Origin: a virus
Lineage: Duplodnaviria; Caudoviricetes
Direction: 5' to 3' (one strand)
DNA length: 53,221 nt
Virus record (IMG/VR): IMGVR_UViG_3300007734_000725
Span: 1 to 53,221 of that record
In this document: positions 3,957-53,221 of the stretch, piece by piece
Layout of the letters: each line of letters opens with the position of its first letter
Numbering within the stretch: position 1 is the stretch's first letter
Position numbers and translations under genes: made by a program
The notes under the pieces: generated by a model
Told to the model about the DNA's origin: nothing
The model's input: only the letters and a program-made list of their open reading frames with translations
Databases searched by the model: none

Positions 3957-3965
3957 GTTTGTCCT

Positions 3966-6092: not shown

Positions 6093-6093
6093 G

Positions 6094-6441
6094 TTACGCG
6101 GCCTCCATGTTGCCCAGCAACTCAGCGTAACGCTCGGGCGGCACTGCGCTCAGGTTGGCACAGCCAACAGTCTCAAACAAATCTTTGAGTGGCTTGCCCT
6201 TTTCTTTGTAGGCCACCAGCTTGGCGCGCACTTCCTCAAGCGTGATGGTTGGCGCAGCAGGGGGTGCCTCTGGCTCAGCAGCAGCGGGGGTCGGCGCAGC
6301 CTTGGCTGCCTTTGGCTTCTTGGCCGGCGCATCTTCTTTGGCCACTGGCTCAGCGTCGCTTGCTTCTAAGAGCTTGGTCATAGCCCAAGCCAAGATCTGA
6401 ACGTGGTCTGCGTTCTGGGGTTGAATGGTAATCGTGATCAT
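6094..6441 (-). CDS. hypothetical protein with Pro/Ala-rich linker
   Basis: 115 aa; C-terminal TLEEVRAKL...LSAVPPERYAELL typical of genes upstream of DUF2800. Confidence 0.75.
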   Translation of the reverse strand: MITITIQPQNADHVQILAWAMTKLLEASDAEPVAKEDAPAKKPKAAKAAPTPAAAEPEAPPAAPTITLEEVRAKLVAYKEKGKPLKDLFETVGCANLSAVPPERYAELLGNMEAA

Positions 6442-6455
6442 TTAAAAACTCCTTG

Positions 6456-6677
6456 TTAAACGGGGGTGTTGGAATCGTCGGCCTTGTTGGCTTCAACAAG
6501 GTAAGCGGCCAAGCGCTTGATGCGATCAAGGTGGTATGCTGAAATTCGGCTTGCGTATTCAGCCGTGCTTTGCGATCTAAGTAATTCGCGACGGGCTTCT
6601 TCAAGCTCGCGTGCAGCAAGCTCTATTGCGGTAGGTGTCTTGAAGAAACTCAAGAACCCTTGGAAGATGTCATTCAT
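6456..6677 (-). CDS. hypothetical protein, first gene of the leftward replication operon
   Basis: 73-aa ORF with AAAGGA RBS. Confidence 0.7.
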   Translation of the reverse strand: MNDIFQGFLSFFKTPTAIELAARELEEARRELLRSQSTAEYASRISAYHLDRIKRLAAYLVEANKADDSNTPV

Positions 6678-6709
6678 GGTTTAGTCCTTTAGGTTGGTTT
6701 AGAGCGGTG

Positions 6710-6780
6710 ATGATAGCACTGCTTTCATTGCTTTTGTAAAAATAAATTTATTGCATGTTACATGTAAACAACGCTATCAT
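6710..6780. promoter_or_regulatory. divergent sigma70-like promoters
   Basis: Rightward TTGCAT(6751)-18 nt-TATCAT(6775); leftward extended -10 TGcTATCAT (6718-6710) with TTTACA/TTACAA upstream; AT-rich centre. Confidence 0.65.
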
Positions 6781-6788
6781 GGCAGCCC

Positions 6789-7010
6789 ATGACTACAAGT
6801 GAAATCATTAGCCGCTTTGGCGGCCCCGTTAACCTGTCCCACTACCTTGGCATACGCTCTCAAGCCGTGTCACTGTGGGCCAGCAAAGATCGCATACCCA
6901 TGGCACGCGTGCCTGAAATGGTACGCATCTCACGCCTGCTGCGACTTGGCCTGCGTGCTGAAGACATGAGGCCAGACATTGATTGGGACGCTCTCAAGGG
7001 GCGCCGGTGA
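6789..7010 (+). CDS. Cro/YdaS-like HTH transcriptional regulator
   Basis: FGGPVNLSHYLGIRSQAVSLW helix-turn-helix and C-terminal MRPDIDW. Confidence 0.85.
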   Translation: MTTSEIISRFGGPVNLSHYLGIRSQAVSLWASKDRIPMARVPEMVRISRLLRLGLRAEDMRPDIDWDALKGRR

Positions 7011-7201
7011 TAGAACTTAGATTAGCCTTGTCCCTTCAAGCGATGCGTGCGATTGCTGAAGGGGCGGAGCTGGTGTTTGACGTGGACGAAGAAGGTGTGC
7101 GCGTGTTCATCTCGTGTGACGACGAAGCGGTTAACGCTTTTAACACACAGGTGCAGCGTGCTCTCCTGCACATGTTGCCTATCAGCGGCATGCCAAATTA
7201 A
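7007..7201 (+). CDS. hypothetical protein
   Basis: GTG start overlapping the Cro-like stop (GTGA). Confidence 0.55.
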   Translation: MIELRLALSLQAMRAIAEGAELVFDVDEEGVRVFISCDDEAVNAFNTQVQRALLHMLPISGMPN

Positions 7202-7242
7202 ACCGATCCGGCCGGATGCCGGTGTTGTATTTAGGAGACGAT

Positions 7243-7440
7243 ATGAATTCTCGATCAGAGTATTTCAAAGATCTTATTGCCGACTGCATTCACGCGGTTG
7301 ATCAAATGGAAATCAACGAGGAGCACCAAGGCGTTGTGATTGCAGCGCTGATCCAGTCCGACAGCTACAACGGCCTGCGCAAAGCGATGCTGCAAGCGAT
7401 GAGCCCCACGTTTGTGATGCAGAGGGGTGATCGGTCATGA
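7243..7440 (+). CDS. hypothetical protein
   Basis: ATG at 7243 with AGGAG RBS; coupled to the primase start. Confidence 0.65.
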   Translation: MNSRSEYFKDLIADCIHAVDQMEINEEHQGVVIAALIQSDSYNGLRKAMLQAMSPTFVMQRGDRS

Positions 7441-9746: not shown

Positions 9747-9956
9747 TAGGGGCCTATTACCCTGCCTATTACCCTGCCCTATTACCCTGACTTAAGTCTT
9801 TGAAATCATTAAAGAATATAGTAGTTAGGGTAATAAGGGTAATAGAAAAAGATATACATATTTTAGGAAGATGATACTTGACAGTTGTGGCAAATGTTAG
9901 TGTTTGCCAGAGGTATATATAGGGAATCCATTGCCCTTTAATGCCCTATTACCCTG
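9739..9956. repeat. iteron-like array (TATTACCCT x7, both orientations) around an AT-rich spacer; candidate replication origin
   Basis: CCTATTACCCTG at 9753, 9765, 9778, 9945; reverse copies at 9739-9750, 9827-9835, 9836-9845. Confidence 0.75.
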
Positions 9957-9970
9957 CACTGGAAAAAGAG

Positions 9971-10237
9971 ATGTTGGAAAAGAAAATCGAGGAGAGGCTT
10001 AGGAAAAAAGCAAAGGAGGCTGGTGGGCTGGCGGCCAAGTGGGTGTCGCCGTCCATGAGCGGGGTGCCGGACCGGATTGTTTTTCTGCCGGGGGGCAAGA
10101 TTATTTTTGTGGAACTAAAGCGGCCGGGCGAAAAGCCAACGCCGCTTCAGGACCGGATCATTGAAATGCTGAGGGGGCTGGGCGCCGATGTGCGCGTGGT
10201 CGACTCGATGGAGAAGGTAGATGAAATTTTCCGCTAG
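9971..10237 (+). CDS. VRR-NUC domain nuclease
   Basis: LEKKIE...GG...KWVSP..SGVPDR...FVELK.PG.KPTPLQ. Confidence 0.9.
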   Translation: MLEKKIEERLRKKAKEAGGLAAKWVSPSMSGVPDRIVFLPGGKIIFVELKRPGEKPTPLQDRIIEMLRGLGADVRVVDSMEKVDEIFR

Positions 10238-11534
10238 ACCGGCGCAAGCCGTGACGATTCAGAGAATGCTGGATGAGACTTACCAGTTGATTGCGCTTCG
10301 CATGGGGGCTGGAAAGACGGTGGCGACCTTGACCGCTGTCCAGAGGCTGGGTTTGAAGACCCTTGTGGTGGCGCCTAAAAGGGTCGCAGAGCTCGTGTGG
10401 CACACGGAAGCGAGTAAGTGGGACCACCTATCAGGCCTACGTGTATCGAAGGTCCTAGGCCCCATTGCGGCCCGGCTAGAGGCATTGATGGCTGACGCGG
10501 ACGTCTACGTGATCAACCGGGAGAACTTTCGGTGGTTGGTCGATCTGGTCAAAGAGAGCAAACAGCCTTGGCCCTTTGAGTGCGTGGTGATCGATGAGAA
10601 CAGAGGGTTTAAGGACCGGGCCAGCAAAGCGTGGCAGGCGCTGAAATCGGTTCGCAGCCAAATCCAAAAGCTGTACATCCTTACAGGTACGCCAGATCCC
10701 AACGGCGATCTGTTGGATCTGTGGGCCCAGATCAGCGTCATGGACAACGGCAAGAGACTGGGCACCGGCATCACCAAGTACCGGGACAAGTGGTACGTGC
10801 CAGACAAACGCAATGGCCAGACGATCTACAGCTGGAGGCTCAAGAAAGGCGCAAGGCAGGAGATCCAAGATGCGGTAAGGGATGTGATGGTCAGCGTGGA
10901 CAGCGGCGTTGAGATGCCAAAGCGGATCGACAACGTGGTCCAAGTGACGTTTGACATGAAGAGGTATCGGGAGATGGAGGCAACCATGGTGAGCGGGGCC
11001 GTGATGGCGGTCAATGCTGCAGTGCTGGCAGGCAAGCTGGGCCAGATGGCCAACGGCGCGGTGTACGACGACAACCGGTTTGTGCACCCGATACATGATG
11101 CCAAGCTGGATGCACTCGAAGAGATCTTGGATCAAGGTGAGCCGGTGCTTTGTTTTACGGCGTACGTGCACGACATGGGCCGGATCAAGTCAAGGTTTCC
11201 AGACGCGGTTCAGTTTGACGGAGAGCCATCCTTAGCCCGCTGGCAGGCCGGAGAGATCAAGTTGATGGTGATGCACCCAGCAAGCGGCGGCCACGGCGTG
11301 GACGGCCTTCAGGTGGGCGGCAATGTGGCTGTTTGGTTTGGCCTGCCTTTTAGCTTGGACCTGTACGAGCAGGCCACCGCAAGGCTTCACAGGCCCGGCC
11401 AAAAGAATGAGGTTGTTGTGCACCACCTTGTGGCGGTGGGCACAATCGACGAGAGAATCATGGCGGTGCTTGCAAGCAAGGGCAACATGCAGCAAGCATT
11501 GATTGACGCAGTCAACGAAGCAAAGGGGAAGTAA
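10221..11534 (+). CDS. SNF2-related helicase
   Basis: MGAGKT, VVIDE, LTGTP, HPASGGHGVD, QATARLHRPGQ. Confidence 0.9.
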   Translation: MKFSARPAQAVTIQRMLDETYQLIALRMGAGKTVATLTAVQRLGLKTLVVAPKRVAELVWHTEASKWDHLSGLRVSKVLGPIAARLEALMADADVYVINRENFRWLVDLVKESKQPWPFECVVIDENRGFKDRASKAWQALKSVRSQIQKLYILTGTPDPNGDLLDLWAQISVMDNGKRLGTGITKYRDKWYVPDKRNGQTIYSWRLKKGARQEIQDAVRDVMVSVDSGVEMPKRIDNVVQVTFDMKRYREMEATMVSGAVMAVNAAVLAGKLGQMANGAVYDDNRFVHPIHDAKLDALEEILDQGEPVLCFTAYVHDMGRIKSRFPDAVQFDGEPSLARWQAGEIKLMVMHPASGGHGVDGLQVGGNVAVWFGLPFSLDLYEQATARLHRPGQKNEVVVHHLVAVGTIDERIMAVLASKGNMQQALIDAVNEAKGK

Positions 11535-11992
11535 TGTTCAAAGAGCGATTAACCAAAGCGCAAGTGTCCAAGAACCTGAGCGAGGTTCCTGTCAATGAGA
11601 TTGGCGACATCGATTTGGTGAGGGCTTGTGGGATGGCCGGCGCAAACAATCCGCTGGGGCTTGCGATCTGGCGGTGGCGGTATGCAGGAGACACACGTGA
11701 AGTGTTCCATATCGCAGAGACCTTGGTTGAGATGGGCAACTCTCCTTTGGTGGTCTACAACGTGATGCACCACCTGTCCAAAGACGTGTGCCCTGTGTGC
11801 CATGGCAGGGGTTACAGCGTGATCAAAGGCGCGCCGGTCCTAAGCGATGAGATTTGTCTGGACTGCAAGGGCGCAGGACGGAAAGAACTAAAAGGCGAAG
11901 CAGAAACGAAATTGGCCGCCGCAATCACCCGCATGGAGCAGGAGATCGCAGCGGCCATCATGAAGAAGCTAGCTAGACAGATTGAGTTCTGA
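11534..11992 (+). CDS. Zn-finger protein, possible lambda-Q-like late antiterminator
   Basis: CPVCHGRG...CLDCKGAG double CxxCxGxG; last gene of the rightward early operon. Confidence 0.5.
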   Translation: MFKERLTKAQVSKNLSEVPVNEIGDIDLVRACGMAGANNPLGLAIWRWRYAGDTREVFHIAETLVEMGNSPLVVYNVMHHLSKDVCPVCHGRGYSVIKGAPVLSDEICLDCKGAGRKELKGEAETKLAAAITRMEQEIAAAIMKKLARQIEF

Positions 11993-12368
11993 TTACTTGG
12001 TTGCAGCAAGGGCAAACGTCCTTGTCTTCACGGCGTTTGATAGCGCGGTGAACTGCGGACTGGTTAACGCCAATAGCTTTGGCTGCGGCGTAGACCGACA
12101 TGCTGTCTTTCTCAACGAGATCAACAGCCATCATGGTCCGTGACTTAGTGGCAGGGTCAAGGTCTTTCTCCTTGGCCCAAACAGCTACCGCAGTCTCGGG
12201 CCATTCATCAGGCCTAGTTGTGTAAGCTGAAGCAGAGATCTGGCCAGCGTTGTCCCAAGCAACAAGGTATTTGGTGAGCGGGTTCTCTGACGTTTCTCGA
12301 AGTTTCTTTTTAAGATTTTCTGACCAGCCGTTGATTTGTAAAAACTCGTCAAGAGTTTGATGTTTCAT
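11973..12368 (-). CDS. HTH DNA-binding protein with C-terminal CPCC
   Basis: AVDLVEKDSMSVYAAAKAIGVNQSAVHRAIKR; AAGGA RBS before the ATG at 12368. Confidence 0.7.
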   Translation of the reverse strand: MKHQTLDEFLQINGWSENLKKKLRETSENPLTKYLVAWDNAGQISASAYTTRPDEWPETAVAVWAKEKDLDPATKSRTMMAVDLVEKDSMSVYAAAKAIGVNQSAVHRAIKRREDKDVCPCCNQVIRTQSV

Positions 12369-12443
12369 TTGGATTTCCTTTGTATGTATTTGGCCCAGCA
12401 AGTAGCACATAGCCACTTGATTCCTGAGATTTCACAGCCGCCT

Positions 12444-12635
12444 TCAGTCAGCCGGTTCTTTTGACATGTTGTGCACTTTCGCCAAGCGGTCATCTTTGTA
12501 TTCTTTCAAAAGTTTTTTAGCCCGGTTCTTAATCCGTTGCCGAGCCCGGGAAGTCTCGGCCGATCCATCGTAGTCAGGCATGGCAAGCAAGGCCTCAAGG
12601 GCCTTGACAAGGTCATCAATCAAAACGGCCTCCAT
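12444..12635 (-). CDS. hypothetical protein
   Basis: 63-aa ORF; start may be the TTG near 12623. Confidence 0.55.
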   Translation of the reverse strand: MEAVLIDDLVKALEALLAMPDYDGSAETSRARQRIKNRAKKLLKEYKDDRLAKVHNMSKEPAD

Positions 12636-12700
12636 ACCATGAGGTCCATGAAAAGGACGACAAGCCCGAGGGCGTAAAGGGTTGCGTATGCGTAGTTCAT
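12620..12700 (-). CDS. small membrane peptide (26 aa)
   Basis: Manual translation MNYAYATLYALGLVVLFMDLMVWRPF*; ATGA coupling. Confidence 0.45.
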   Translation of the reverse strand: MNYAYATLYALGLVVLFMDLMVWRPF

Positions 12701-43974: not shown

Positions 43975-44757
43975 ATGGGTATCGCTGGCTTGATTGCTGC
44001 CGCTGTAGGCGGGGCTGCTGAAGGCTACGGCAAGGGCGCCGACATGGAAATGAAAAAGCAAAGTGAGCTGGATCTAAGGAAACAGCTTATGGATGCTGAG
44101 ACTGAAAGGCAGTTGCGTGTTGACGAGATCAAACGCGGCCGCGACATTACTGAGGAAACTCGTAAGATGTCTCCAGAGTACATTGCTCAAACCGTTGCTG
44201 CTGATTTGGCAAAAACTCAAGGGGGTCTTGCAAACCGCAAAACGGTGGCTCCTCAAGCAGCTGAGGTCGCAACCTCCGAGTACACCGCTAACAAACCTTT
44301 GGATATAACCAAAGCAGCGGATGCCGTTACCGCCAAGATTACAGAAACAACCTCGCTTTCGGGAAACAAAGACTATCTCAAAGGCGAGGCAGCTTTGAAC
44401 GAAGCCAAAGGCGCAGCCGGTATCAAGGCCGCTCAGATCCGCGCAGACTCTATCAAGGATCGTGCGGTTTCAGGCGGCGGTGGTGCTGTCAAAGTGCGCA
44501 GCACATACACCGATGATTCAGGCCAGAAGATTGCAGTCTTGTCTGACGGTACTACCAAGGTCCTTGGCAAGGCAGCTGACTACGATAAGACCTTGTCCAA
44601 CTTGGTTACCAAGATGGCCAAAGATGATTACAAGTTTGCTAAATTGCCGGAGGCTGAAAAGCGCAAGCAAGCTGAAGAGCGCTTGCGTGGTCAGATCGTT
44701 GTGCCTAGCAGCGGTCGAGACTTGTCTAAATACGAACGCGACGCAACCGCAGACTAA
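43975..44757 (+). CDS. internal virion / ejection protein
   Basis: MGIAGLIAAAVGGAAEGYG N-terminus, then charged coiled coil. Confidence 0.65.
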   Translation: MGIAGLIAAAVGGAAEGYGKGADMEMKKQSELDLRKQLMDAETERQLRVDEIKRGRDITEETRKMSPEYIAQTVAADLAKTQGGLANRKTVAPQAAEVATSEYTANKPLDITKAADAVTAKITETTSLSGNKDYLKGEAALNEAKGAAGIKAAQIRADSIKDRAVSGGGGAVKVRSTYTDDSGQKIAVLSDGTTKVLGKAADYDKTLSNLVTKMAKDDYKFAKLPEAEKRKQAEERLRGQIVVPSSGRDLSKYERDATAD

Positions 44758-44765
44758 GGACCCAC

Positions 44766-47700
44766 ATGGCATTTGACGTCAAAGGTGCTTTAAAGGACGG
44801 ATATAGCCCGGCCGAAATCGCTGATTACCTTGCCAGCAAAAGAAACTTCGACGTTGCCGCCGCCCGCAAGGACGGCGTTAGCGACGACGAAATTATTAGC
44901 CATTTGGTAAGCCGGGTTGATGCCCCCAAAGCTGCGCCTGTGGAAGAAGCGCCCGCTGTGCCTGCGGCTGCCCGTGCGCCTGCGCCCGCTCCCGCGCCTG
45001 CTAAACCAGCCGATACCCGTGGCGTCTTGCAAAAAGTCAAAGACTTTGTCACGCCAGAATACAAGAGTGTGTTGGACACAGCGGCGCCTCCAACGGCGCA
45101 AGAACAACAAGCCGAGATCGACAAGCGCCTGAGTTACGGCGCAGGTCCAGTTAGCAAAGGCACTGTTGCCCAAGCTGATCTGGTCCGCAGCGGCATAACT
45201 CGGACAGAAGACGAGCGCGTCAAACAAGTAGCGCAGGAGATGGACCTGCGGGGCGAAGAATCTATTGGCGGGTTAATTGAGCGCGCTAAGAGGCCTGAGA
45301 ATGTAGCCGCCGCGCGAGACGCAAAAGCTGAAGAATTCCGTACCGCTGGGCAGTGGGCCTTTGATACATTGGTTTCCGCACCCGCTCAGTTTGGCGCGTC
45401 GTTTCTTAGCTTGCCCGTCAACATCATTGCGCCAAGCAGCGCCATTGGCGAAACACTTCGCAAAGCGCAAAAAGATTTTAAAGATCTTGAGTCAGATCAA
45501 CTTAAAGCTCGCCAAGCTCGCATGGCCGCCCGGGTCAATAACGAAGAAGGCTTTATCAATCAGTACGCAACAGTTGTTGGCGAGCTGGTGTCTAGCCCGT
45601 CAATGGCTTTGCAAGAAACGGTCAAGCAGGCCGGTTACTTCTTGGGTGTGCTTGGTTTGGCCAGAGCTGGAAGTGCGGCTGCCGGCGGCTTGGTTGGCCT
45701 TGCTGGCCGCGCAAGCCCGACGCTGGCGTTGGGCGAGGCTATCAGCGGTGGGGCTATTAAAACCGGCGCTCAAATAGCAGGGGCTGCCGTGGGCGGACGT
45801 ACGGCTTCCATGCTTATGGCCGGTGGTGACGCCGCAGGGTCTACTTACGAAGCACTGACAGACCCCAATAAAACACCGCTTAAAGAGTGGCAAAAGAACG
45901 AAGACTACCAACGCTTGACTGCCGGGGGGATGTCTAGCAAAGACGCAATCAAAGAACTTGCTACAACAAAAGCGCGCATTGCCGCTGCAATTGTGGCGCC
46001 GCTTGGCCTTTTTGGTTATGCCGGTGCTGAGGCTGCCATAGTTTCTCGGGGTATTGCCAAGTCTTTAAACCAGCGACTGGCAACCCAAAGCGGCGCAAAG
46101 ATTTTTGGCAAAGAACTTGTTGGCGAAAACATTGAAGAGATGGGAACTCAGCTGGGTAGCAACGTTGTTACCCAAACCGTAAACCCAAATCAAGATTTGT
46201 TAGAAGGTGTGGCCGAAGCCGGCGCTACCGCTACGGTAACCTCTGGCCCGTTCGCTGCGCTTGCAGCCAGAAACGAATACAAACAAGCTCTTGCTGGCCA
46301 ACCCGGGGGCGCGCAGTTTGCAGGCTCGGACCAAGCGGCTCGCTACTTACTTAATCCCCAGACTTACGACGCCCGGTTGATCAGCCCACTGGAAACGTCG
46401 GACCCGTCGCGCATCTTGCAATCGACATCGGTTGACGACGCGGTTGCATCGGCAAATGAATTGGCTGGATCGCTGGAGATCACCCCCGGCCCAGTCGCGC
46501 CAGCACCTTTAGGACCCATAGACACGTTGGGCCGGGTTGAGCCAACGTTTGATCCCAACGCCCCTCTGGCCCCACTGCCCGCCCTTGACACTATGCAGGC
46601 CCTTACCCTGCCTGAGCCAAGTGTTGCTACCGAACAACAGTTTGGTTTGGACAAGTTGCGTTTGAATGCGCCACGCCCACAAAAGATTCAAGGTGTTGCG
46701 GTTTCGCAACTGTCTGACGACCAGCTTCAAACCATTGCAACCGACGAATCCGTCCCCGCAATCACCCGCAGGGGCGCGTCAGTTGAGCTTACAGCGCGTC
46801 AAGCCGAAGGGGCTGGTACTACCCCAGCCACTGGACTTACAAACGCCCCTAGCGTACCATTGGCCAATGCACCAACCGACCAAAACGCAGGCATCATTGC
46901 CGACAAAACTCTTACCCTCCCAGAATCGGAAATGTCTGGTGCCGCAATTGCGCCAGTGGGAGGAGAGTCTGCCGCAGCCGGAGCTAGAGCAACTGCACAA
47001 GCTGCTATCGACAGGTGGGCTACTTCCAACGGTGTAGAAAGCCCGGCGATCTTTAACGCGTCTCCAGCAAATCTGGACAGCGCGATCAATGAAATTGCTC
47101 AGGCTTTAAACAGCCAATTCAGTGGTAGGGTTTACGCTTATAACGACGATCGCTCTAACGCCATAAACGGCGTGGCCATTGGCGGCACAGCCTTTATCAA
47201 TACCGCCAACGTTGACACCAACGTTGCGCGCACGGGCCTTCATGAATTCCACCACACGATTGAACAGCTTGCAAAGCTGGAAACCAATCAAGGCCTGACC
47301 GACACGCCGGCGCAGCGGTACGTGGCCAGCATGAACGGTGTCTTTGATGACATGACCGATGTGGGTAAGCGCGCATACCTTGAAAACTTCTTGCTGAAAG
47401 AAGAGCTGGATGCAATTGCAGATCCTGTTGCGCGAGAGCAACGCCTGCAAGAAGCTATGGCCGGCAAGACCATACGGTCTGAAATGACTGCCGACTTCCT
47501 AGGCAACAGGGCTACAGACAAGAAATTCTGGGAAGACGTGGCGGCTGCTGACCCACAAGGCTTTAAAGGTTTTGTCGACAGATGGATTAAGATCATTGAC
47601 AATTTGATCGACACGCTTAAAGGCACGGCAACTCAAGGCGGGAAAGAATCTGCCAAGGTCGACACCTACTTGCGCGATTTGAACAAGGCAAAAGCAATAG

Positions 47701-50700
47701 CCCGCGACGCCCTCGTTGCGTATAACAAAGGAATTCAAAATGGAAGCATTAACGTTGCAGCAGGTCAAGACGTATCAGGGCCTACAGCGTCAGCTCGACA
47801 ACTCGCTGGTGGAGATGGGGGCAGTCAAGCCCCAGAATACGGAACAGCCCGCGAAGGCGCCGTCTCCGTTATCGGCCGGCACTACTCAACCGAAGCCCGC
47901 ACTTCGTTAAATGGAGCTTATTATGGGACTGGTCTCAAAGGTGCAGAGCGCGATCGACTGGACGGTAGCCCAGATCCTCGCCTCAAAAATCGCGTTTACT
48001 TCTATGTTGACCAAGGCGCCGGCGTCCGACCCGAAGCCGGAGTCGGAGGCATCGCCCACGAAGTCCGACTCAACAACATCTACGACCCCAAAACGCAGAT
48101 ACTTCCGGTCAAAGGAAACTTCAACGCCTTCGAATCCGCAGTAATCAATGGAGGTTTTGACGGCTATATTGCTCCCTTTGGAAACAATCAAGCGGCCGTC
48201 GTCCTGCTGGGCCCGCGCCACTCTGCCGTACCCGTGCGATCCTTGGGTCGCGTGGCCGGTGCCCCAGCCCCTACACCAGCCGAACCTACGACGCTGAAGA
48301 AGGGGCTTCTTTCCAAAGAGCTGGCCATCATCGAGGCTTCCCGTGTACCGGGTGCCCGTGTTGCTGCTGGCAATCTGGAGATCCCCGTTGCTTCACGCGA
48401 CGCAGCCAACACAGAACTGGAACGCATCGGCAGCGATGTTAGGTTTAGCAAGAAGCCCGCAAAGGCAGCGCCTGCTAGGGTTATGTTTGAGGTTGCCCCC
48501 GATCCTAACAATACCGAGCTTACCGCTCGTTGGGACGCGGTGCCCTTTGAACGCAAGATTGAGATCAGCCAAAGGGTTGCTGAGAAGATCATGCCTCAAG
48601 TGTTTAAGCTCGCCGGCGTTAGGGCTAAGATGACCACGCAGTTGGGCGGCTATCTTGAAAAAACAAGTCCTTCGTTTGCTGCGCTTGTCCCAAGCACGGC
48701 GTCTGCTGAGCAGCTTATGGATGTTGCGCGGCTGGGCGGGTTTGGTTTAGCCCAAGACAGCATGATGGTCTTAGATTCCAAACCTTTTGAAGGCTCATTC
48801 CCCACAGGTTTGATCACAATCACGTTGCCAGAAAACATGGTCGATCAAAAATCAGTCGACGCCGTTTATCAAGACTTGCGGCAGGTGTCGCCAGAAAACA
48901 TCAGTGGCCACACAACAGTTGGACAAGAGATGGTTTTGGCCGTTCCTTCTGCTAGTATGGACGACCTTGCATCAAAAATAGAAAGCGTTCTTGGCAGTCG
49001 TCCAGAGAGCTTTATTTTAAAAACCGGGGATGGCCAGATGGCCTTCCCATCCAAAGAGGAGTATGACTATGGTCAAGAGGGAACAGGGTCTCCCGAGCTT
49101 CTTGCAAAACGGGCAGAGGCTCGTCGCATCCGCGAAGAAGCCAGCGCCGCCATCGAAGCCGAACTCGCCAAAGATGAAAGTACCGGTGGGCGCAAAATAG
49201 ACACAGGCGTTTATCGCTCTGTTGCAGACGCCTTCGGCCTTTCCCAAGCAGAGTACAACGCCAGTGCTCTGCCCCTGATGCTGGGCGGCGTGAAGGACAA
49301 GATCTTCCGCGCTCCCAAAATTGGCGGCATTCCAGAAACCATTCAGTGGCTGGACCAGCGATACCAAGATTCAGGCATGCCAACCCTTGACATCAACAAG
49401 GCCGAGGACCGCGCGACCTTGGCCAAGCTGATGGCGGCCGAAGCCGTTGGCGCAATTCGAAGCGCTGGCAACGCAGTCGAATGGTACGACGAGACCATTG
49501 ACAAAATGCTAAGCATCATGTCGGTCAAGTACCCGGAGCTGAACACGGACCCTGACGCGCGCAATGCTTTCTTGATCGCCGTTGCCATCTCTTCTCAGAA
49601 AATGGATGTTGAATCCAATCTGACTTTTGCTTCCAGCCAGTACGAAGCCTTTCGCACAACAGGCAAATTCCCTGAGATTGGCCAAGGCACGGCCATCCCA
49701 GCCATGGTCAAAAACTTTGCATTGGCCAACAAGGTGATGGCTGACATGGGCCCGACCCTGTTGCGCCGGTTCTTGCAAACTGAATTCACCAAGCGTGAAT
49801 TAGAGACTGCTGGATTTCCAATTGGCTCCGAGTCAATGGACGAGAAAATGCTTGGCTCGGCCATCTTTGGACCCAAAATTGGATTTGGCTTTTACAGTAA
49901 CCTGACCGGCAACTTTGAACCAATCACCATGGACATGTGGTTCATGCGTTTTGTTGGCCGTCTAAGCGGCACCCTGCTGGCTTTTGACCCGGTCCTGTTT
50001 CCAAAGCAAGTGGCCAAGCTCCGTGCCGCTTTAAACGAAACCGGAGATTCAAGCCGTGGCGTTTATGCCGCAGACCTTAAGCCAGAAGATGTTGCTGCCG
50101 CGCAAGAAACCGACGAAGGCGCAATTGCTTTGGCGCGTAAAATAAACACCTTGCACAACCGGCAGTTCATCAAAGAACGTGAAGCATTTAACTCTGGCGC
50201 CCGCATCAAAACCGCTTTGGTAGGTGCGTCCAACTCGATCATTAAGTCTTCTGACAAGCCTACTGATGCACCGTCCAGCGGCGGTGAGCGCCAGCGCCTG
50301 CGTGACGTGACTCGACAGATGGTGGCTTTGGTTGAGGAGCAGACAGGTAATCGTGTGCCACCAGCGGCGTTGCAAGCGTTGGTCTGGTATCCAGAACAGG
50401 AGCTTTATAAAAAGCTGGGCGTTGATCTTGCAGTCACTAGCCAAGACTATGCGGGTGCGGCACAATTACTACTTAAGAAAGAAGGCTTTGATGAAAAACA
50501 AATCAGCGCAGCAGCCGAATCTGGACCAAGACAAGCACGACAAGTGGCTGGAAAGCAGGACGCCGGAACAACTGGACAGACTGGCCAGCCGACTGGGCGC
50601 ACTGGCCCGATCCAAGGAGAAGAGCGGGAAACTTTCATTGCAGCCCGAGTCCCCCTCAAAGACATCTTCGTTGGATTAGAAAAACGTGGCCTTGCCAAGG

Positions 50701-50825
50701 CTAACACGGAGGCTATGATTGCGCGTCGGTCAGATGCGGCCCAGATCCAATACATGCAGGACAATTTCCTCGACATCCTCGACGAGCTGGACACATCTGG
50801 CTTAGTCGAAATCAATTGCAAATAA
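44766..50825 (+). CDS. giant multidomain (polyvalent) virion protein: membrane-like region, zincin-like peptidase, ART-like domain, HhH-glycosylase-like domain
   Basis: 2019 aa; HEFHH...SEMTAD (47241-47495); GRHYS...RVYFY...GGFDGY (47870-48170); WYDE...ISSQ...GPKIG..FYSNLTG....TMDMWFMR...LQALVW (49480-50390). Confidence 0.8.
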   Translation: MAFDVKGALKDGYSPAEIADYLASKRNFDVAAARKDGVSDDEIISHLVSRVDAPKAAPVEEAPAVPAAARAPAPAPAPAKPADTRGVLQKVKDFVTPEYKSVLDTAAPPTAQEQQAEIDKRLSYGAGPVSKGTVAQADLVRSGITRTEDERVKQVAQEMDLRGEESIGGLIERAKRPENVAAARDAKAEEFRTAGQWAFDTLVSAPAQFGASFLSLPVNIIAPSSAIGETLRKAQKDFKDLESDQLKARQARMAARVNNEEGFINQYATVVGELVSSPSMALQETVKQAGYFLGVLGLARAGSAAAGGLVGLAGRASPTLALGEAISGGAIKTGAQIAGAAVGGRTASMLMAGGDAAGSTYEALTDPNKTPLKEWQKNEDYQRLTAGGMSSKDAIKELATTKARIAAAIVAPLGLFGYAGAEAAIVSRGIAKSLNQRLATQSGAKIFGKELVGENIEEMGTQLGSNVVTQTVNPNQDLLEGVAEAGATATVTSGPFAALAARNEYKQALAGQPGGAQFAGSDQAARYLLNPQTYDARLISPLETSDPSRILQSTSVDDAVASANELAGSLEITPGPVAPAPLGPIDTLGRVEPTFDPNAPLAPLPALDTMQALTLPEPSVATEQQFGLDKLRLNAPRPQKIQGVAVSQLSDDQLQTIATDESVPAITRRGASVELTARQAEGAGTTPATGLTNAPSVPLANAPTDQNAGIIADKTLTLPESEMSGAAIAPVGGESAAAGARATAQAAIDRWATSNGVESPAIFNASPANLDSAINEIAQALNSQFSGRVYAYNDDRSNAINGVAIGGTAFINTANVDTNVARTGLHEFHHTIEQLAKLETNQGLTDTPAQRYVASMNGVFDDMTDVGKRAYLENFLLKEELDAIADPVAREQRLQEAMAGKTIRSEMTADFLGNRATDKKFWEDVAAADPQGFKGFVDRWIKIIDNLIDTLKGTATQGGKESAKVDTYLRDLNKAKAIARDALVAYNKGIQNGSINVAAGQDVSGPTASARQLAGGDGGSQAPEYGTAREGAVSVIGRHYSTEARTSLNGAYYGTGLKGAERDRLDGSPDPRLKNRVYFYVDQGAGVRPEAGVGGIAHEVRLNNIYDPKTQILPVKGNFNAFESAVINGGFDGYIAPFGNNQAAVVLLGPRHSAVPVRSLGRVAGAPAPTPAEPTTLKKGLLSKELAIIEASRVPGARVAAGNLEIPVASRDAANTELERIGSDVRFSKKPAKAAPARVMFEVAPDPNNTELTARWDAVPFERKIEISQRVAEKIMPQVFKLAGVRAKMTTQLGGYLEKTSPSFAALVPSTASAEQLMDVARLGGFGLAQDSMMVLDSKPFEGSFPTGLITITLPENMVDQKSVDAVYQDLRQVSPENISGHTTVGQEMVLAVPSASMDDLASKIESVLGSRPESFILKTGDGQMAFPSKEEYDYGQEGTGSPELLAKRAEARRIREEASAAIEAELAKDESTGGRKIDTGVYRSVADAFGLSQAEYNASALPLMLGGVKDKIFRAPKIGGIPETIQWLDQRYQDSGMPTLDINKAEDRATLAKLMAAEAVGAIRSAGNAVEWYDETIDKMLSIMSVKYPELNTDPDARNAFLIAVAISSQKMDVESNLTFASSQYEAFRTTGKFPEIGQGTAIPAMVKNFALANKVMADMGPTLLRRFLQTEFTKRELETAGFPIGSESMDEKMLGSAIFGPKIGFGFYSNLTGNFEPITMDMWFMRFVGRLSGTLLAFDPVLFPKQVAKLRAALNETGDSSRGVYAADLKPEDVAAAQETDEGAIALARKINTLHNRQFIKEREAFNSGARIKTALVGASNSIIKSSDKPTDAPSSGGERQRLRDVTRQMVALVEEQTGNRVPPAALQALVWYPEQELYKKLGVDLAVTSQDYAGAAQLLLKKEGFDEKQISAAAESGPRQARQVAGKQDAGTTGQTGQPTGRTGPIQGEERETFIAARVPLKDIFVGLEKRGLAKANTEAMIARRSDAAQIQYMQDNFLDILDELDTSGLVEINCK

Positions 50826-50834
50826 GGGTTTACC

Positions 50835-51326
50835 ATGACACCAACAATGATCATCTCCGCTGACATCAAGCGCATGCTTGACGACGCAATCCACGCTGAG
50901 CTTTACGCAGCAAACCTGTACAAGCACATTGCCAATCAGGTGCAGCGCCTTGGCTACCTTGGCGCAATGAAATTCTTTTTGAAAGAAAGCGAAGCCGAGT
51001 TAAATCACTACCAACTGCACGCCCAATTTCAAAACGACGTGGGCACTGTGGCCAAGGTCCCGATGATTGAAGCCATGACCGATTCGGTCAAGTCTTTTTC
51101 TGACGCCATGGAACTGGCTTATGAAACTGAGCTTGAGTTGTACAACACCTACAAAAATATGTACTCTCAGACCAGTAGCGACCCCGTGGTTCAGCAATTC
51201 CTGCTTCAGTTCTTGGAGCTACAGCGCACCAGCGTTGGTGAGTATGGCGATTTGCTTGCCCGTATCCAGTTAGTGGATGGCGACAAGGCAGGCATGCTCT
51301 TGATCGATCAGGAGCTGGGAGCCTGA
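50835..51326 (+). CDS. ferritin-like di-iron four-helix protein
   Basis: AELYAANLY, GAMKFF...SEAELNH, AYETE, D.VVQQFL.QFLELQ match the FtnA helix pattern. Confidence 0.85.
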   Translation: MTPTMIISADIKRMLDDAIHAELYAANLYKHIANQVQRLGYLGAMKFFLKESEAELNHYQLHAQFQNDVGTVAKVPMIEAMTDSVKSFSDAMELAYETELELYNTYKNMYSQTSSDPVVQQFLLQFLELQRTSVGEYGDLLARIQLVDGDKAGMLLIDQELGA

Positions 51327-51330
51327 CCAC

Positions 51331-53221
51331 ATGGCAACCTGTAAATACACGTTCATTGGTGCTGACGGTAAGAGCACCACGGTTGAGGGTATACCCGCCC
51401 TTAAAGAATTCCTGCTTCAAGGCGGGCTTGAACAATACTTGCCCGGTCGTGCAGCAGAAATGCTGGCGCCTAAAGCTGACGACGATGTCGGCACCCCTTT
51501 TGACGTAGCTTTTAGCGGCCGACAAACGCCGGCTAAAGATTGGCCCCGGGCAGAAGAGCCCGGCGAGTTTGAAGCCAAACCCGGTGACTCCATTACCGTG
51601 GTCCGCTTGGCCAACATGGAAGGCCTTGGAAACGCGAACGCCGCCAGTGTCCAAGGCTTGGCCAGCTACATCTCTATGATTGACGACGACGAGACCGGCG
51701 CTGGATCAGAGGGCGTCAACTCAGACAACATCTACGTGTACAAAGTCAAAGTTCCTGAAAGCGGCTTTGGTGAATACAACTTGATGCGCGGTGGCAAGAC
51801 CGTGTCTGGTAAAGGCTCTGAAAAAGATGGCCGCCAAGAAGCCCGCTATGGCGGCTACTGGTATTCATTTACCGAAGGCACAGAAGCCGATCTCCTTGCC
51901 ACCGTTCCTTTGGCCAACGTGCGCAAAGCGGCTGCAGTCATTGAAAGGGAGCGAGAAGACGCAGCACCTTGGAACAAAGGTCCCATGACCGATGAGCAAG
52001 CGGCTACGCTTAAAGGTAACTTTGATCGCATTGGCACCGAGGCAGGGACCAAAGCGTTGCGTGACGCGTTTGCTGGCGCAGGCATAAGCCTTAGCCGCCG
52101 CGAACAAAAGAACGCCGCTGCGAGCCGCGTATCCAACGTCAGTTCTGATCGATTCAAACGCACCGACGAATTGCAGCAAGCCGTCACTGACTTGCAAGAA
52201 GGCAAGATTACCCAAGACGAATACAACGCCATGGTCGACAACCTTCGCCCGGTTTATCCGTACGAAAAAGTCCCTGCGCTTACAACCCCGGCCGACGCTA
52301 AATATGCCTTGGCCAATGGCCGTGGTCAAAGCCTAGAGAAGGCGGCCAAGTACGGCCTGCCATCAGACACCTTGGCCAAAGGCGACTTTGCCCAGCTACG
52401 CTTGGACATCCCTTCGTACCAAGAGCACGACGCATGGGTGGTCAGTGTGCACACACCCAAGTCCACCAACCGTCAAGTGCAAGCAGCCTACGACGCAGGC
52501 ACTGTCATTGGATACGAATCTGCAGCAGCAATGACCGACGCAACTTTTGGCATGAACCAAAAGGCGGCAACCAAGATTGCACAGGGTACAAGCAAGGGCA
52601 CGATTGCCACCATACTTGGAAAGTGGAAACCAATCAGCAACCAAGCCGCAAAGGTTCGGGCTGATGCTGCTATCAAGGACCCGGCTTGGACACAGGTGGG
52701 CATGGACCCATTCCGCCACAGTTACTTTTACGATCGCGACACAATGCGCCCAGTGCTGAGCGCCGATGAAGTGATTCAGCTCGGCCCTTTGGTGTTGGCC
52801 AAAAACGCCACCTTCAGCGAAGACGGCAAAGACATCACCGGCGCGCCAATTGCTTTTAGTCCTAGGGAAGGCGGCAGTCTTAACTCCAAACTTGAGCAGC
52901 TCATTCTGTCTGACTTTGGTGGCGCTGTTCGGCAGTACGCCGAAATTGAGGGGACCGAGAAGGGTAAGAAGATTGACGTCGACCTTATCCGCAACCTGTC
53001 CCCCGAGTACCGTGCAGACCGCAGCCTTGCACCACAAGTGCATGAGGCGTCCAGTGCATTCAGTCAGATGCTGTACGACCAACGGCTTGAAGAGTCTAGG
53101 CCGGGCGGCGTGATCACGTTTATGTCCGGTGGCGGCGGCGCGGGTAAGTCTTCAGCCGAAGCCCTGCTTAAGCCTATACTTGACGAATCGCACACAATCT
53201 TTGACGGCACGCTGTCCAGCA
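51331..53221 (+). CDS. second giant polyvalent protein, truncated by the window end; includes a zeta-toxin-like P-loop kinase
   Basis: Manual translation open for 630 codons from ATG 51331 (MATCKYTF...); RLDIPSY..WVVSVH...QVGMDPFRHSYFYDR...EVIQLGPLVLAKN domain; IDVDLIR...PEY...VHEASS, GGGGAGKSS, IFDGTLS. Confidence 0.85.
   Translation, partial: MATCKYTFIGADGKSTTVEGIPALKEFLLQGGLEQYLPGRAAEMLAPKADDDVGTPFDVAFSGRQTPAKDWPRAEEPGEFEAKPGDSITVVRLANMEGLGNANAASVQGLASYISMIDDDETGAGSEGVNSDNIYVYKVKVPESGFGEYNLMRGGKTVSGKGSEKDGRQEARYGGYWYSFTEGTEADLLATVPLANVRKAAAVIEREREDAAPWNKGPMTDEQAATLKGNFDRIGTEAGTKALRDAFAGAGISLSRREQKNAAASRVSNVSSDRFKRTDELQQAVTDLQEGKITQDEYNAMVDNLRPVYPYEKVPALTTPADAKYALANGRGQSLEKAAKYGLPSDTLAKGDFAQLRLDIPSYQEHDAWVVSVHTPKSTNRQVQAAYDAGTVIGYESAAAMTDATFGMNQKAATKIAQGTSKGTIATILGKWKPISNQAAKVRADAAIKDPAWTQVGMDPFRHSYFYDRDTMRPVLSADEVIQLGPLVLAKNATFSEDGKDITGAPIAFSPREGGSLNSKLEQLILSDFGGAVRQYAEIEGTEKGKKIDVDLIRNLSPEYRADRSLAPQVHEASSAFSQMLYDQRLEESRPGGVITFMSGGGGAGKSSAEALLKPILDESHTIFDGTLSS

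What the first reader, a model, noticed from the sequence alone, without database searches (positions are those of the whole stretch)
47740..50679. RBS-led small ORFs overprinted in the +1 frame at domain ends of the 2019-aa polyvalent protein (possible nested antidote genes)
Seen: three ORFs, all in the +1 frame of the giant gene, each beginning where a globular domain ends. 47740-47910 (AAAGGA-7 nt-ATG; MEALTLQQVKTYQGLQRQLDNSLVEMG..., after the HExxH peptidase). 49069-49200 (GAGGAG-7 nt-ATG; the weakest). 50491-50679 (AAGAAGG-5 nt-ATG; MKNKSAQQPNLDQDKHDKWLESRTPEQLDRLASRLGALARSKEK..., after the glycosylase-like domain). For the first and third, the main frame reads as G/Q/T/A-rich linker (AGKQDAGTTGQTGQPTGRTG) while the +1 frame reads as amphipathic helix. 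Known: polymorphic toxin domains are typically followed by small immunity genes. Inference: cognate inhibitors hidden inside the effector gene keep each domain quiet during virion assembly, leaving it active once injected.
Basis: partly seen in the sequence, partly recalled or inferred. Interest (0 to 1): 0.75.

Follow-up and report, generated by a model that had tools for sequence, protein, structure and literature searches.

The report
Hidden small genes inside giant phage gene
Three short genes read in a shifted frame really are nested inside a 2019-residue phage virion protein gene, each placed just after one protein domain, inherited together with that domain and probably binding to it, an arrangement of genes that has not been described.

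Summary
The three +1-frame ORFs (47740-47910, 49069-49200, 50491-50679) exist as described. In the window alone they are not beyond chance. Comparison with about 90 related phage contigs shows they are real nested genes.

- The most variable codon position switches to the +1 frame at exactly these three places.
- pN/pS is 0.38-0.56 in the +1 frame against 0.70-1.57 in the main frame. Four control +1 ORFs give 1.0-1.8 against 0.18-0.51.
- Ribosome-binding site and ATG are conserved. ORF C persists where the flanking domain is only 36-40% identical.
- The main frame is also kept open: 63 of 63 sequences, against 0.9% expected.
- Domains are shuffled among relatives, and ORF B always follows domain D3 and ORF C always follows D4.
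- A complex model puts peptide C into D4's most conserved groove: ipSAE 0.87, best control 0.00.

The "antidote" role is unproven, and D4 is not glycosylase-like; it resembles DUF7178, a domain of unknown function. The C motif also occurs in ordinary genes. This is a new variant of gene overlap. Interest is high.

The parts
44766..50825 (+). Host gene: 2019-aa multidomain ('polyvalent') virion-module protein, frame 0
   Evidence: One open frame. It lies after the terminase, portal, major head and tail-fibre genes. Homologues of 1700-2200 aa are open throughout. No Pfam, PHROG or NCBIfam hit for the whole protein.
47103..47735 (+). HExxH (zincin-like) region of the host protein, residues about 780-990; HEFHH at 47241-47255
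   Evidence: Motif seen in the translation. No family match. Boundaries come from BLAST blocks.
47727..47732 (+). Shine-Dalgarno-like AAAGGA of ORF A
   Evidence: AAAGGA or CAAGGAG lies 5-8 nt before the ATG in 12 of 12 sequences that span it.
47740..47910 (+). Nested gene A, +1 frame, 56 aa; the part under +1-frame selection is about 47740-47835
   Evidence: Core pN/pS is 0.40 in the +1 frame and 1.57 in frame 0; the tail 47836-47910 reverts to 1.13 and 0.38. Phase switch at 47736-47870 and 47721-47855. Found in the +1 frame in 12 of 12 spanning sequences and in 22 further new loci.
47823..48365 (+). Domain D2 of the host protein (residues about 1020-1200), unknown family
   Evidence: BLAST block that moves independently among relatives. 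The atlas leads (SAM lyase 0.84, ART-PolyVal 0.79) are below its 0.9 mark. Model pLDDT below 50 here.
48462..49067 (+). Domain D3 of the host protein (residues about 1233-1434)
   Evidence: Block lost together with ORF B in L008-type relatives and placed after D4 in others. The model (whole-model mean pLDDT 58.9; 10-residue block means 51-92 over this part) resembles tandem ferredoxin/ACT-like folds, best Foldseek E 4.5e-4.
49056..49061 (+). Shine-Dalgarno GAGGAG of ORF B
   Evidence: Conserved inside the frame-0 motif K-E-E-Y-D-Y at the end of D3, also in relatives with 27-40% D3 identity.
49069..49200 (+). Nested gene B, +1 frame, 43 aa
   Evidence: pN/pS is 0.56 in the +1 frame and 0.70 in frame 0, so both frames are constrained. 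Phase switch at 49041-49175. The ATG at 49069 is invariant, while the upstream ATG at 49063 is lost in many relatives. A B-type ORF follows D3 in 28 of 31 loci by the automatic scan; the other 3 (L009, L011, L014) were found.
49200..50480 (+). Domain D4 of the host protein (residues 1479-1905), all-alpha, DUF7178-like
   Evidence: AlphaFold2 model with pLDDT 90.4. No PDB fold match at E <= 0.001. 14 BFVD matches at E <= 0.001, in proteins named as polyvalent-protein associated. DUF7178 matched by 6 of 45 members, best E 1.4e-4, and not by the window's own copy. Atlas lead.
50479..50485 (+). Shine-Dalgarno-like AAGAAGG of ORF C
   Evidence: An SD-like motif lies at -16..-4 in 64 of 64 unique ORF C loci.
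50491..50679 (+). Nested gene C, +1 frame, 62 aa
   Evidence: pN/pS is 0.38 in the +1 frame and 1.07 in frame 0; 0.62 and 1.06 over 63 unique relatives. Phase switch at 50481-50660. A +1 ATG ORF lies at the end of D4 in 83 of 87 informative loci. Frame 0 is open in 63 of 63, against 0.9% expected. Predicted to bind D4: ipSAE 0.87, best control 0.00.
50655..50822 (+). C-terminal tail of the host protein (residues about 1964-2019)
   Evidence: Conserved frame-0 block after ORF C in the close relatives. Other domains stand in its place in distant relatives.
46867..47037 (+). Candidate fourth nested ORF ('Z'), +1 frame, 56 aa, just before the HExxH region; uncertain
   Evidence: Weak phase switch at 46836-47000. 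The conserved +1 peptide core has pN/pS 0.65 in the +1 frame and 1.01 in frame 0 over 11 unique sequences. There is no SD-like motif before its ATG in the window, but GGAG precedes an ATG in the L009/L014/L028/L043 lineage.

Best explanation
The three ORFs are real, independently initiated genes nested in the +1 frame of a giant multidomain virion protein gene. Each lies over the 3' end and linker that follow one domain: A after the HExxH region, B after D3, C after D4. There the main frame needs only to stay open as a flexible low-complexity linker, while the +1 frame carries the constrained peptide. Each small gene belongs to the domain upstream of it and moves with that domain when domains are lost or reordered.

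I take the products (43-62 aa, hydrophilic, with a helix-forming core) to be partner peptides made from the same late mRNA that bind their own domain. Peptide C lays its invariant N-L-D-Q-D-x-H-D segment and the following helix into the most conserved groove of D4.

Most likely role (inferred, about 1 in 3): a cap that masks or chaperones the domain in the producing cell and during packaging. Shown by computation: dual coding, start signals, linkage to the upstream domain. Supported by a model only: binding of C to D4. Inferred: binding of A and B, and any masking function.
For: 1. Codon-phase switch at exactly three places in the well-aligned 3' 3.1 kb, coinciding with the three ORFs; A and C repeat with another set of sequences.
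2. pN/pS in the +1 frame against frame 0: A core 0.40 and 1.57; B 0.56 and 0.70; C 0.38 and 1.07. Four control +1 ORFs give 1.01-1.81 and 0.18-0.51.
3. ATG and SD are conserved: A in 12 of 12 spanning sequences, B in 13 of 14 (L008 lacks the whole segment), C in 15 of 15. Over all fetched loci, C is found in 83 of 87 informative loci, down to 36-40% D4 identity, and B in 28 of 31 plus the 3 seen.
4. Every profile match to A, B or C lies in the +1 frame and inside the giant ORF.
5. Frame 0 is open in 63 of 63 unique C regions. When the +1 peptide is kept and its codons redrawn, the mean chance is 0.009.
6. Linkage to the upstream domain. D3 and B are deleted together in L008-type genes. The order D4-C-D3-B-D2 occurs in L054-56, L062 and L065, and D4-C-D3-B in L051-53, L059-61, L063, L069-71 and L077. 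Different domains follow C in L079-L097.
7. Complex model of D4 with peptide C: ipSAE 0.87, 0.88 and 0.84, best of 3 controls 0.00. That mark was reached by 58 of 80 solved complexes and 2 of 110 mismatched pairs. Contacts agree in at least 88% and partner pLDDT is at least 73. D4 has no solved look-alike, so the pass is unlikely to come from memory of a known complex.
8. Interface residues are enriched in invariant columns: 16 of 54 against 41 of 373, Fisher p = 5.7e-4.
9. The C profile finds 116 protein clusters at E <= 0.001 among 1.84 billion representatives, so it is a real peptide family.
Against: - There is no evidence of translation. RNA-library contigs of relatives cover the region but say nothing about reading frames.
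- Binding rests on one model, and only for C. The tool's calibration holds only roughly with alignments of my own.
- No domain is shown to be an enzyme or toxic. D4 has an unknown fold, D3 looks ACT/ferredoxin-like on a low-confidence model, and D2 and the HExxH region have no family hit.
- The C motif also occurs in frame in ordinary proteins: P0182 is a stand-alone 259-aa gene with no D4 within 12 kb. It is also fused with the B motif in small proteins (P0142, P0152, P0168, P0172, P0173, P0236). This fits a general docking tag or subunit as well as a cap.
- A cannot be assigned to the upstream rather than the downstream domain, because both always flank it where it is found. All that is seen is that D2 occurs without A in L055-type genes.
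- In the window alone the open +1 frames are unremarkable.
Confidence: 0.6

Rival explanations
1. The peptides are positive partners, not antidotes. They are docking tags, adaptors or obligatory small subunits. D4 (and D3) would be peptide-binding hubs of the injected protein, and the C or B motif, whether on a free peptide or on a larger protein, would attach cargo or assemble the complex for packaging.
For: The C motif lies in frame at the C-terminal part of ordinary globular-looking proteins (P0182, P0126, P0178, P0237, P0206). It is combined with the B motif in one chain (P0142, P0152, P0168, P0172, P0173, P0236; P0147 has C, then B, then a further domain). P0182 is a normal gene with its own SD, next to terminase- and portal-sized ORFs. 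Further short motifs recur in longer +1 ORFs. The most conserved surface of D4 is the predicted peptide site, as expected if binding this peptide is the domain's conserved job.
Against: No DNA context could be fetched for the B-C fusion proteins, so some may be +1 ORFs of other giant genes called by gene finders. No D4 was seen beside P0182. Nothing separates this reading from a cap on present data.
Confidence: 0.25
2. The small proteins act on something else, such as the host or phage regulation. They merely use unconstrained linker DNA as free coding space, and their linkage to the upstream domain is only physical.
For: Overprinting onto unconstrained regions is common in viruses (PMC8227390, search listing and start of abstract only). 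In the overlaps frame 0 has pN/pS of about 1. Adjacent DNA is co-inherited in any case.
Against: The high-scoring complex model with zero-scoring controls, and the conserved-groove interface. B and C keep the same upstream partner across three or more different downstream contexts and down to 27-40% domain identity.
Confidence: 0.1
3. The +1 peptides are not separate proteins. They are alternative C-terminal tails added to truncated forms of the giant protein by programmed +1 (or -2) ribosomal frameshifting, with the purine-rich element acting as a stimulator.
For: SD-like elements are known to stimulate frameshifting in prfB and dnaX (recalled; review PMC5009743 seen only in the search listing). 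A tail folding back onto its own domain would also explain the complex model.
Against: 41 of 64 unique C loci have a +1-frame stop 6 codons or fewer upstream of the ATG. The ATG is kept in 12 of 12, 13 of 14 and 15 of 15 close sequences and in most distant ones. In L074 it is made from different frame-0 codons. No shared slippery sequence is visible between SD and ATG across lineages. A-rich second codons are typical of start sites.
Confidence: 0.04
4. Chance ORFs, or constraint at the nucleotide or RNA level, with no +1 protein.
For: In the window alone the ORF lengths are ordinary.
Against: Three-base periodicity of substitutions in the +1 frame, with low pN/pS there only. Peptide-level conservation where the DNA has diverged strongly. 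116 database clusters match the profile. The control ORFs behave oppositely.
Confidence: 0.01

Closest known systems
Rz/Rz1 spanin genes of phage lambda (Rz1 embedded in the +1 frame of Rz); recalled from general knowledge, not from a call
   Same: A small gene with its own ribosome-binding site lies wholly inside a larger phage gene in the +1 frame. The two products are partners that bind each other.
   Different: Here one 6-kb gene holds three (perhaps four) nested genes, each at a domain junction. The peptides have no lipoprotein signal or membrane segment (sequence). The host gene is a virion-module multidomain protein, not a lysis gene. The nested genes move as modules with single domains.
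Toxin-immunity cassettes of polymorphic toxins (CdiA-CT/CdiI, Rhs, colicin-immunity); recalled
   Same: A variable domain is followed at once by a small cognate gene, and the pair is inherited and exchanged as a module. The partner is predicted to cover a conserved surface of the domain.
   Different: Immunity genes follow the toxin's stop codon and do not overlap it. Here the polypeptide continues through the small gene in another frame. Toxicity of the domains and neutralisation are untested. The peptides are shorter than typical immunity proteins.
Polyvalent proteins of phages and conjugative elements (Iyer et al. 2017, PMC5512222; 12 passages read with 'find')
   Same: Many unrelated domains in one polypeptide, encoded in a virion module and likely packaged and injected, with a zincin-type peptidase motif. 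The D4 fold matches viral proteins named after polyvalent-protein domains.
   Different: In the passages seen, that paper does not mention genes nested in another frame ('reading frame' occurs once, for neighbouring small ORFs; 'immunity protein' 0 times). Pfam's polyvalent-protein models do not hit the window's protein.
Out-of-frame genes hidden in in-frame insertions: ShiLan element with hidden HNH (PMC11855218) and out-of-frame homing endonuclease in a dnaX intein (bioRxiv 10.64898/2026.09.14.751524); search listing and start of abstract only
   Same: A segment that stays open in the host gene's frame while a second protein is read from another frame.
   Different: Those encode homing nucleases of mobile insertions. 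The peptides here are 43-62 aa without nuclease motifs and have no family match. They are tied to neighbouring domains.
Secretion chaperones and adaptors encoded beside their effector (type III chaperones, type VI Eag/Tap-type adaptors); recalled
   Same: A small protein encoded next to a delivered effector binds one region of it before delivery. This is a possible functional analogue.
   Different: No sequence or fold relation was tested. Those genes do not overlap the effector gene.

Membership tests
Nested (overprinted) protein-coding gene | Alternative-frame ORF kept open at the same place across homologues | tested here: met
   A 12 of 12, B 13 of 14, C 15 of 15 close sequences. C in 83 of 87 informative loci. 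B in 28 of 31, plus 3 seen.
Nested (overprinted) protein-coding gene | Purifying selection on the alternative-frame protein, not explained by the host frame | tested here: met
   pN/pS in the +1 frame 0.38-0.56 against 0.70-1.57 in frame 0; the controls are reversed. Phase switch. Broad C set 0.62 against 1.06.
Nested (overprinted) protein-coding gene | Conserved translation start signals (SD plus start codon) | tested here: met
   SD-like motif in 64 of 64 unique C loci.
Nested (overprinted) protein-coding gene | Host frame also maintained (true dual coding) | tested here: met
   Frame 0 open in 63 of 63 unique C regions, against a mean of 0.009 expected. All homologous giant ORFs are open.
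Nested (overprinted) protein-coding gene | The product is made (ribosome footprints or peptide detected) | not testable with these tools
   Only RNA-library contigs of relatives could be laid. They show neither frame nor translation.
Effector-antidote (toxin-immunity) module | The upstream domain is a toxic or harmful activity | tested here: inconclusive
   D4: no PDB fold match and only a domain of unknown function. D3: ACT/ferredoxin-like on a low-confidence model. HExxH motif present but no family hit.
Effector-antidote (toxin-immunity) module | Small gene directly 3' of the domain and co-inherited with it | tested here: met
   B goes with D3 and C with D4 through deletion and reordering. 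A cannot be resolved.
Effector-antidote (toxin-immunity) module | The small protein binds the domain | tested here: inconclusive
   Model only, and for C only: ipSAE 0.87 against best control 0.00.
Effector-antidote (toxin-immunity) module | The small protein neutralises the domain's activity | not testable with these tools
   Needs expression and rescue assays.
Programmed ribosomal frameshift product | Conserved slippery site, and the +1 frame open from that site into the new tail | tested here: not met
   +1-frame stop 6 codons or fewer before the ATG in 41 of 64 unique C loci. No shared slippery motif in the upstream sequences listed.
Polyvalent protein (sense of PMC5512222) | Several unrelated domains in one polypeptide, with variable architecture among relatives, in a virion-gene context | tested here: met
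   Domain blocks are reordered or lost among relatives. Terminase, portal, head and tail-fibre genes lie upstream.
Polyvalent protein (sense of PMC5512222) | Match to the curated polyvalent-protein domain models (LPD, ART-PolyVal, MPTase-PolyVal) | tested here: not met
   0 Pfam families for the whole protein at E <= 0.1 and for its parts. LPD7 is hit weakly by 1 of 45 D4 members. The D4 fold does match BFVD entries carrying such names.
Rz/Rz1-type embedded spanin pair | The embedded product is a lipoprotein and the host product a membrane protein | tested here: not met
   Peptides A, B and C are hydrophilic, without a Cys lipobox or hydrophobic segment (sequences).

The most novel reading that the evidence does not exclude
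Giant injected 'polyvalent' phage proteins carry a second, hidden coding layer. A family of short modular partner peptides (types A, B and C, and further recurring motifs) is written in the +1 frame across the linkers between domains. Each peptide is bound to and inherited with the domain before it, so that 'domain plus nested partner' is the unit of shuffling. In effect this is an effector-partner cassette compressed into a single open reading frame. It would be widespread in freshwater phages and invisible to gene callers.
Probability: 0.45. Interest if true: 0.88.

Novelty: new variant of a known kind. Interest (0 to 1): 0.8.

Why it matters
- Gene finders discard ORFs nested inside longer genes, so this coding layer is missing from annotation. 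In the one annotated isolate record examined, the giant gene is a single 'hypothetical protein' CDS with no nested feature.
- If each domain of an injected multidomain protein brings its own partner peptide, there is a handle for working out what unknown domains such as DUF7178 do: a ready-made ligand or inhibitor for each.
- It would also explain how such proteins are kept harmless, folded or loaded.
- It shows that disordered linkers can be chosen as sites of dual coding.
- It provides a clean natural test set, three positives and four negatives in one gene, for methods that detect overlapping genes.

Tried and rejected
- Family searches gave no usable match. PHROGs, Pfam and NCBIfam on the peptides gave nothing at PHROGs and NCBIfam and only sub-threshold Pfam hits on ORF C and candidate Z (E 0.05-0.2, below cut-off); the giant protein gave nothing. 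Pfam on ten motif-bearing database proteins gave nothing.
- PDB sequence profiles for D4 and for D2+D3 gave nothing useful: 0 hits, and one designed protein at E 0.003.
- Nucleotide search of the phage collection gave no match. The protein search gave 4 distant records.
- In L019, the frame-0 tail after D4 looked to me like peptide C. The profile score is E 0.44 in a tiny database, so I dropped it as evidence.
- Further +1 ORFs in distant giants (L055 2878-3112 and 5635-5818, with their counterparts) show only a weak contrast: pN/pS 0.73-0.81 against 1.04-1.32, from 3-4 sequences. They remain candidates.
- The distant B-type set shows no contrast at saturation: 0.83 against 0.91.
- DNA context of the B-C fusion proteins and of P0182 in viral contigs found no relative. 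The metagenome scan found P0182 and two relatives.
- Promoter-like and terminator-like sites in 44000-51500 are at chance level.
- Sequencing runs: three RNA libraries hold 5-7% of the sampled words. When laid, contigs of relatives at least 85% alike cover parts of 47000-51000. Such contigs cannot show strand, ends, frame or translation, and DNA can be present in RNA libraries. A joint 49083->50503 in X1 has a side of 28 letters, which is unreliable.
- Supplements of papers were not consulted.
Full report
**What the window is**

The window is a 53,221-base virus record estimated 95% complete. PHROG matches identify a DNA polymerase, primase/helicase, terminase, portal, major head protein and tail fibres. 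The giant ORF 44766-50825 (2019 aa) lies at the end of this structural block. The whole protein matches no Pfam, PHROG or NCBIfam model.

**Checking the observation**

All three ORFs are in the +1 frame of the giant gene, and the stated purine-rich elements and spacings are correct. On the window alone they are not remarkable:
- The +1 frame holds eight ATG ORFs of 49 aa or more, several of them longer than the three picked.
- If the frame-0 protein is kept and its codons redrawn, the +1 frame stays stop-free over these lengths with P = 0.32, 0.65 and 0.24.
Only 5 of 14 ATG-started alternative-frame ORFs of 35 aa or more have one: the three ORFs, the in-frame ATG two codons before B, and one other at 47923.

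**Comparative evidence**

A scan of viral contigs gave 14 loci with 58-85% identical giant genes. A second scan, with a shorter relative as query, gave 78 more loci, of which 6 are contigs already fetched.

In a nucleotide alignment of the window with the first 14 loci, the most variable codon position is the frame-0 wobble everywhere in the well-aligned 3' 3.1 kb, except in three stretches where it becomes the +1-frame wobble. These are 47736-47870, 49041-49175 and 50481-50660, which are the three ORFs. In the poorly aligned 5' part, four windows deviate weakly.

Summed over all pairs, pN/pS is as follows:

| Region | +1 frame | Frame 0 |
|---|---|---|
| A core (47740-47835) | 0.40 | 1.57 |
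| B | 0.56 | 0.70 |
| C | 0.38 | 1.07 |
| Four other +1 ORFs of the same gene | 1.01-1.81 | 0.18-0.51 |
| Three flanks | 1.05-1.38 | 0.15-0.36 |

The ATG and SD are kept in 12 of 12 (A), 13 of 14 (B; L008 lacks the whole segment) and 15 of 15 (C) sequences that span them. For B, the ATG at 49069 never varies, whereas the TAT two codons upstream is often TAC, which removes the ATG at 49063. With a different set of 18 relatives, A and C again stand out.

**Depth of conservation**

Profiles of the three peptides hit only the +1 frame, and only inside the giant ORF, in the new loci.

A +1 ATG ORF of 35 aa or more lies at the end of domain D4 in 83 of 87 informative loci.
- The four without one are L017-L019, where the gene ends at D4, and L078, which has the homologous open stretch but no ATG.
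- I left four of the 83 (L016, L020, L034, L095) out of the family alignment as doubtful. Afterwards L095 matched the profile at E 1e-6 and L016 at 0.046.
- The family reaches relatives whose D4 is only 36-40% identical. There the peptide still reads ..N-K-E-Q-D-K-F-D-K.. followed by a helix.
- Over 63 unique sequences, pN/pS is 0.62 in the +1 frame and 1.06 in frame 0, with distances near saturation.

B-type ORFs follow D3 in 28 of 31 loci by an automatic scan. The three misses (L009, L011, L014) were mapping errors, since one search shows their ORFs.

**True dual coding**

Frame 0 is open across all 63 unique C regions. If the +1 peptide is kept and its codons redrawn, the mean chance of that is 0.009. 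The giant protein is therefore selected to read through the small gene. It does so as a G/Q/R/T/A-rich stretch whose residues drift freely.

**Independent initiation, not frameshifting**

All 64 unique C loci have an SD-like motif at -16..-4, and 41 have a +1-frame stop within six codons upstream of the ATG. The sequences between SD and ATG share no slippery pattern. In L074 the ATG is built from different frame-0 codons.

**Architecture and linkage**

BLAST blocks define the parts of the window's protein:
- the HExxH region (about residues 780-990)
- D2 (about 1020-1200)
- D3 (about 1233-1434)
- D4 (1479-1905)
- a C-terminal tail

Relatives shuffle these blocks:
- L008-type genes lack residues 1234-1478, that is D3 together with ORF B.
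- L054-56, L062 and L065 have the order D4, D3, D2.
- L051-53, L059-61, L063, L069-71 and L077 have D4 then D3.
- L079-L097 have other sequence after D4.

In every arrangement C follows D4 and B follows D3. The small genes therefore belong to the domain upstream. A is always flanked by the HExxH region and D2 where it occurs, so it cannot be assigned. D2 does occur without A in L055-type genes.

**What the domains are**

D4 gives a confident all-alpha model with pLDDT 90.4. It has no PDB fold match: 0 hits at E <= 0.001 and a best E of 0.41. It has 14 matches in predicted viral structures, in proteins named 'Large polyvalent protein associated domain-containing', 'ART-PolyVal-like domain-containing' or 'RelA/SpoT'. 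Six of 45 D4 members weakly match DUF7178, but the window's copy does not, and the protein atlas points the same way. No paper in the library mentions DUF7178. 'Glycosylase-like' is therefore unsupported, while 'polyvalent protein' is reasonable.

The D2+D3 model is poor, with pLDDT 58.9. Its D3 part resembles tandem ferredoxin/ACT-like folds. The leads for D2 are below the atlas's own mark.

**Binding**

The single complex job paired D4 (alignment A1, 45 rows) with peptide C (A3, 42 rows).
- Scores: ipSAE 0.87, 0.88 and 0.84, and 0.00 for all three controls.
- Calibration: that mark was reached by 58 of 80 solved complexes and 2 of 110 mismatched pairs. The tool notes this holds only roughly with alignments of one's own.
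- Consistency: the runs share at least 88% of contacts, and partner pLDDT is at least 73.

The model supports binding but does not show it. Since D4 resembles no solved structure, memory of a known complex is unlikely.

The interface uses peptide residues 3-51. The invariant Gln13 touches D4 residues 224-226. On D4 the interface covers 54 residues, of which 16 are invariant in A1, against 41 of the other 373 (Fisher p = 5.7e-4). So the peptide is placed on the domain's most conserved surface.

**The peptides are modular motifs**

A profile of C, run against 1.84 billion representative proteins, finds 116 clusters at E <= 0.001 and 30 at E <= 1e-10. Most are 47-120 aa. Of the 18 I read:
- Six carry a B-type motif and a C-type motif in one chain.
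- One has C, then B, then a further domain.
- Five have a globular-looking N-terminal part followed by the C motif.

One of the last kind, P0182, is an ordinary 259-aa gene with its own SD in a phage-like contig. It has a 79% identical relative that keeps the motif, and no D4 lies within the 12 kb held. None of these proteins has a Pfam match. I could not obtain the DNA context of the fusions.

This shows that the motif is a genuine protein module. It also suggests that the linker frame, not the peptide frame, is the younger reading (inference). It weakens a pure 'antidote' reading in favour of 'docking peptide'.

**Mechanism and odds**

| Claim | Probability |
|---|---|
| Real nested coding genes | about 0.93 |
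| Each product binds its upstream domain | about 0.6 (C about 0.7) |
| Role is as adaptor, subunit or docking tag | about 0.25 |
| Unrelated function using free linker space | about 0.1 |
| Frameshift tails | about 0.04 |
| Chance | about 0.01 |

**Novelty**

Three literature searches found no nested genes in polyvalent or internal virion protein genes. Twelve passages of the founding paper on polyvalent proteins (PMC5512222) do not mention them either. The nearest things in print that I saw, in listings only, are out-of-frame homing nucleases inside in-frame insertions. Rz/Rz1 is the classical embedded +1 pair (recalled). The general phenomenon, overlapping genes in phages, is known. Nesting at domain junctions of a giant injected protein, with domain-linked inheritance and predicted cognate binding, appears not to be.

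Noticed in passing
window 46867-47037 (+1 frame of the giant gene): Possible fourth nested ORF just before the HExxH region. A conserved +1 peptide core (..L-R-Q-W-E-E-S-L..E-Q-L..) has pN/pS 0.65 in the +1 frame against 1.01 in frame 0 over 11 unique sequences. There is no SD before its ATG in the window, but GGAG precedes an ATG in a sister lineage.
   Followed up: partly
L099 (Limnohabitans phage DC33, PQ492659) locus 7130-7345, inside the CDS at locus 3292-12669: A cultured phage has a 71-aa +1 ORF with a strong SD at the end of its D4-like domain. It matches the C profile only weakly (E 0.033). The record annotates one 3126-aa hypothetical protein there and nothing nested. Its taxonomy line reads Inoviridae, although the genome is 39 kb.
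   Followed up: partly
L055 2878-3112 and 5635-5818; L056 2989-3223 and 5719-5902; L062 3301-3481 and 5266-5452; L065 2584-2791: Two further families of SD-led +1 ORFs at other junctions of the roughly 3000-aa giant genes of distant relatives. The pN/pS contrast is weak: 0.73-0.81 in the +1 frame against 1.04-1.32 in frame 0, from 3-4 sequences.
   Followed up: partly
Database proteins P0142, P0152, P0168, P0172, P0173, P0236, P0147; also the longer +1 ORFs of L062, L069, L074, L098, L058, L064 and L066: Short motifs recur in different orders in small proteins and in the longer nested ORFs: the B and C motifs, P-L-D-L-Q-N-L-P-F-D-P-A, E-x-D-G-x-R-A-E-A-x-R-R-L, and a terminal L-E-M-A-R-x-L-G-F. 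They look like a modular peptide vocabulary.
   Followed up: no
L100 1435-2211 and L101 2521-3303: An ordinary 259-aa gene carries the C motif in its own frame in a phage-like contig, upstream of terminase- and portal-sized ORFs. No D4 domain lies in the 12 kb held.
   Followed up: partly
L017 about 2050-2265, L018 2043 onward, L019 up to 2212: Where the gene ends at D4, the next gene (L017, L018) or the in-frame tail (L019) begins with a shared W-[LIV]-E-D-P-D-E-P-D motif. There is no significant relation to peptide C.
   Followed up: partly
window 47911-48144 and 48148-48297: Two more +1 ORFs follow ORF A head to tail in the same frame: TAA then ATG at 47908-47913, and a 3-nt gap at 48145-48147. 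They look like an operon, but they evolve as non-coding in that frame, with pN/pS 1.31 and 1.81.
   Followed up: yes
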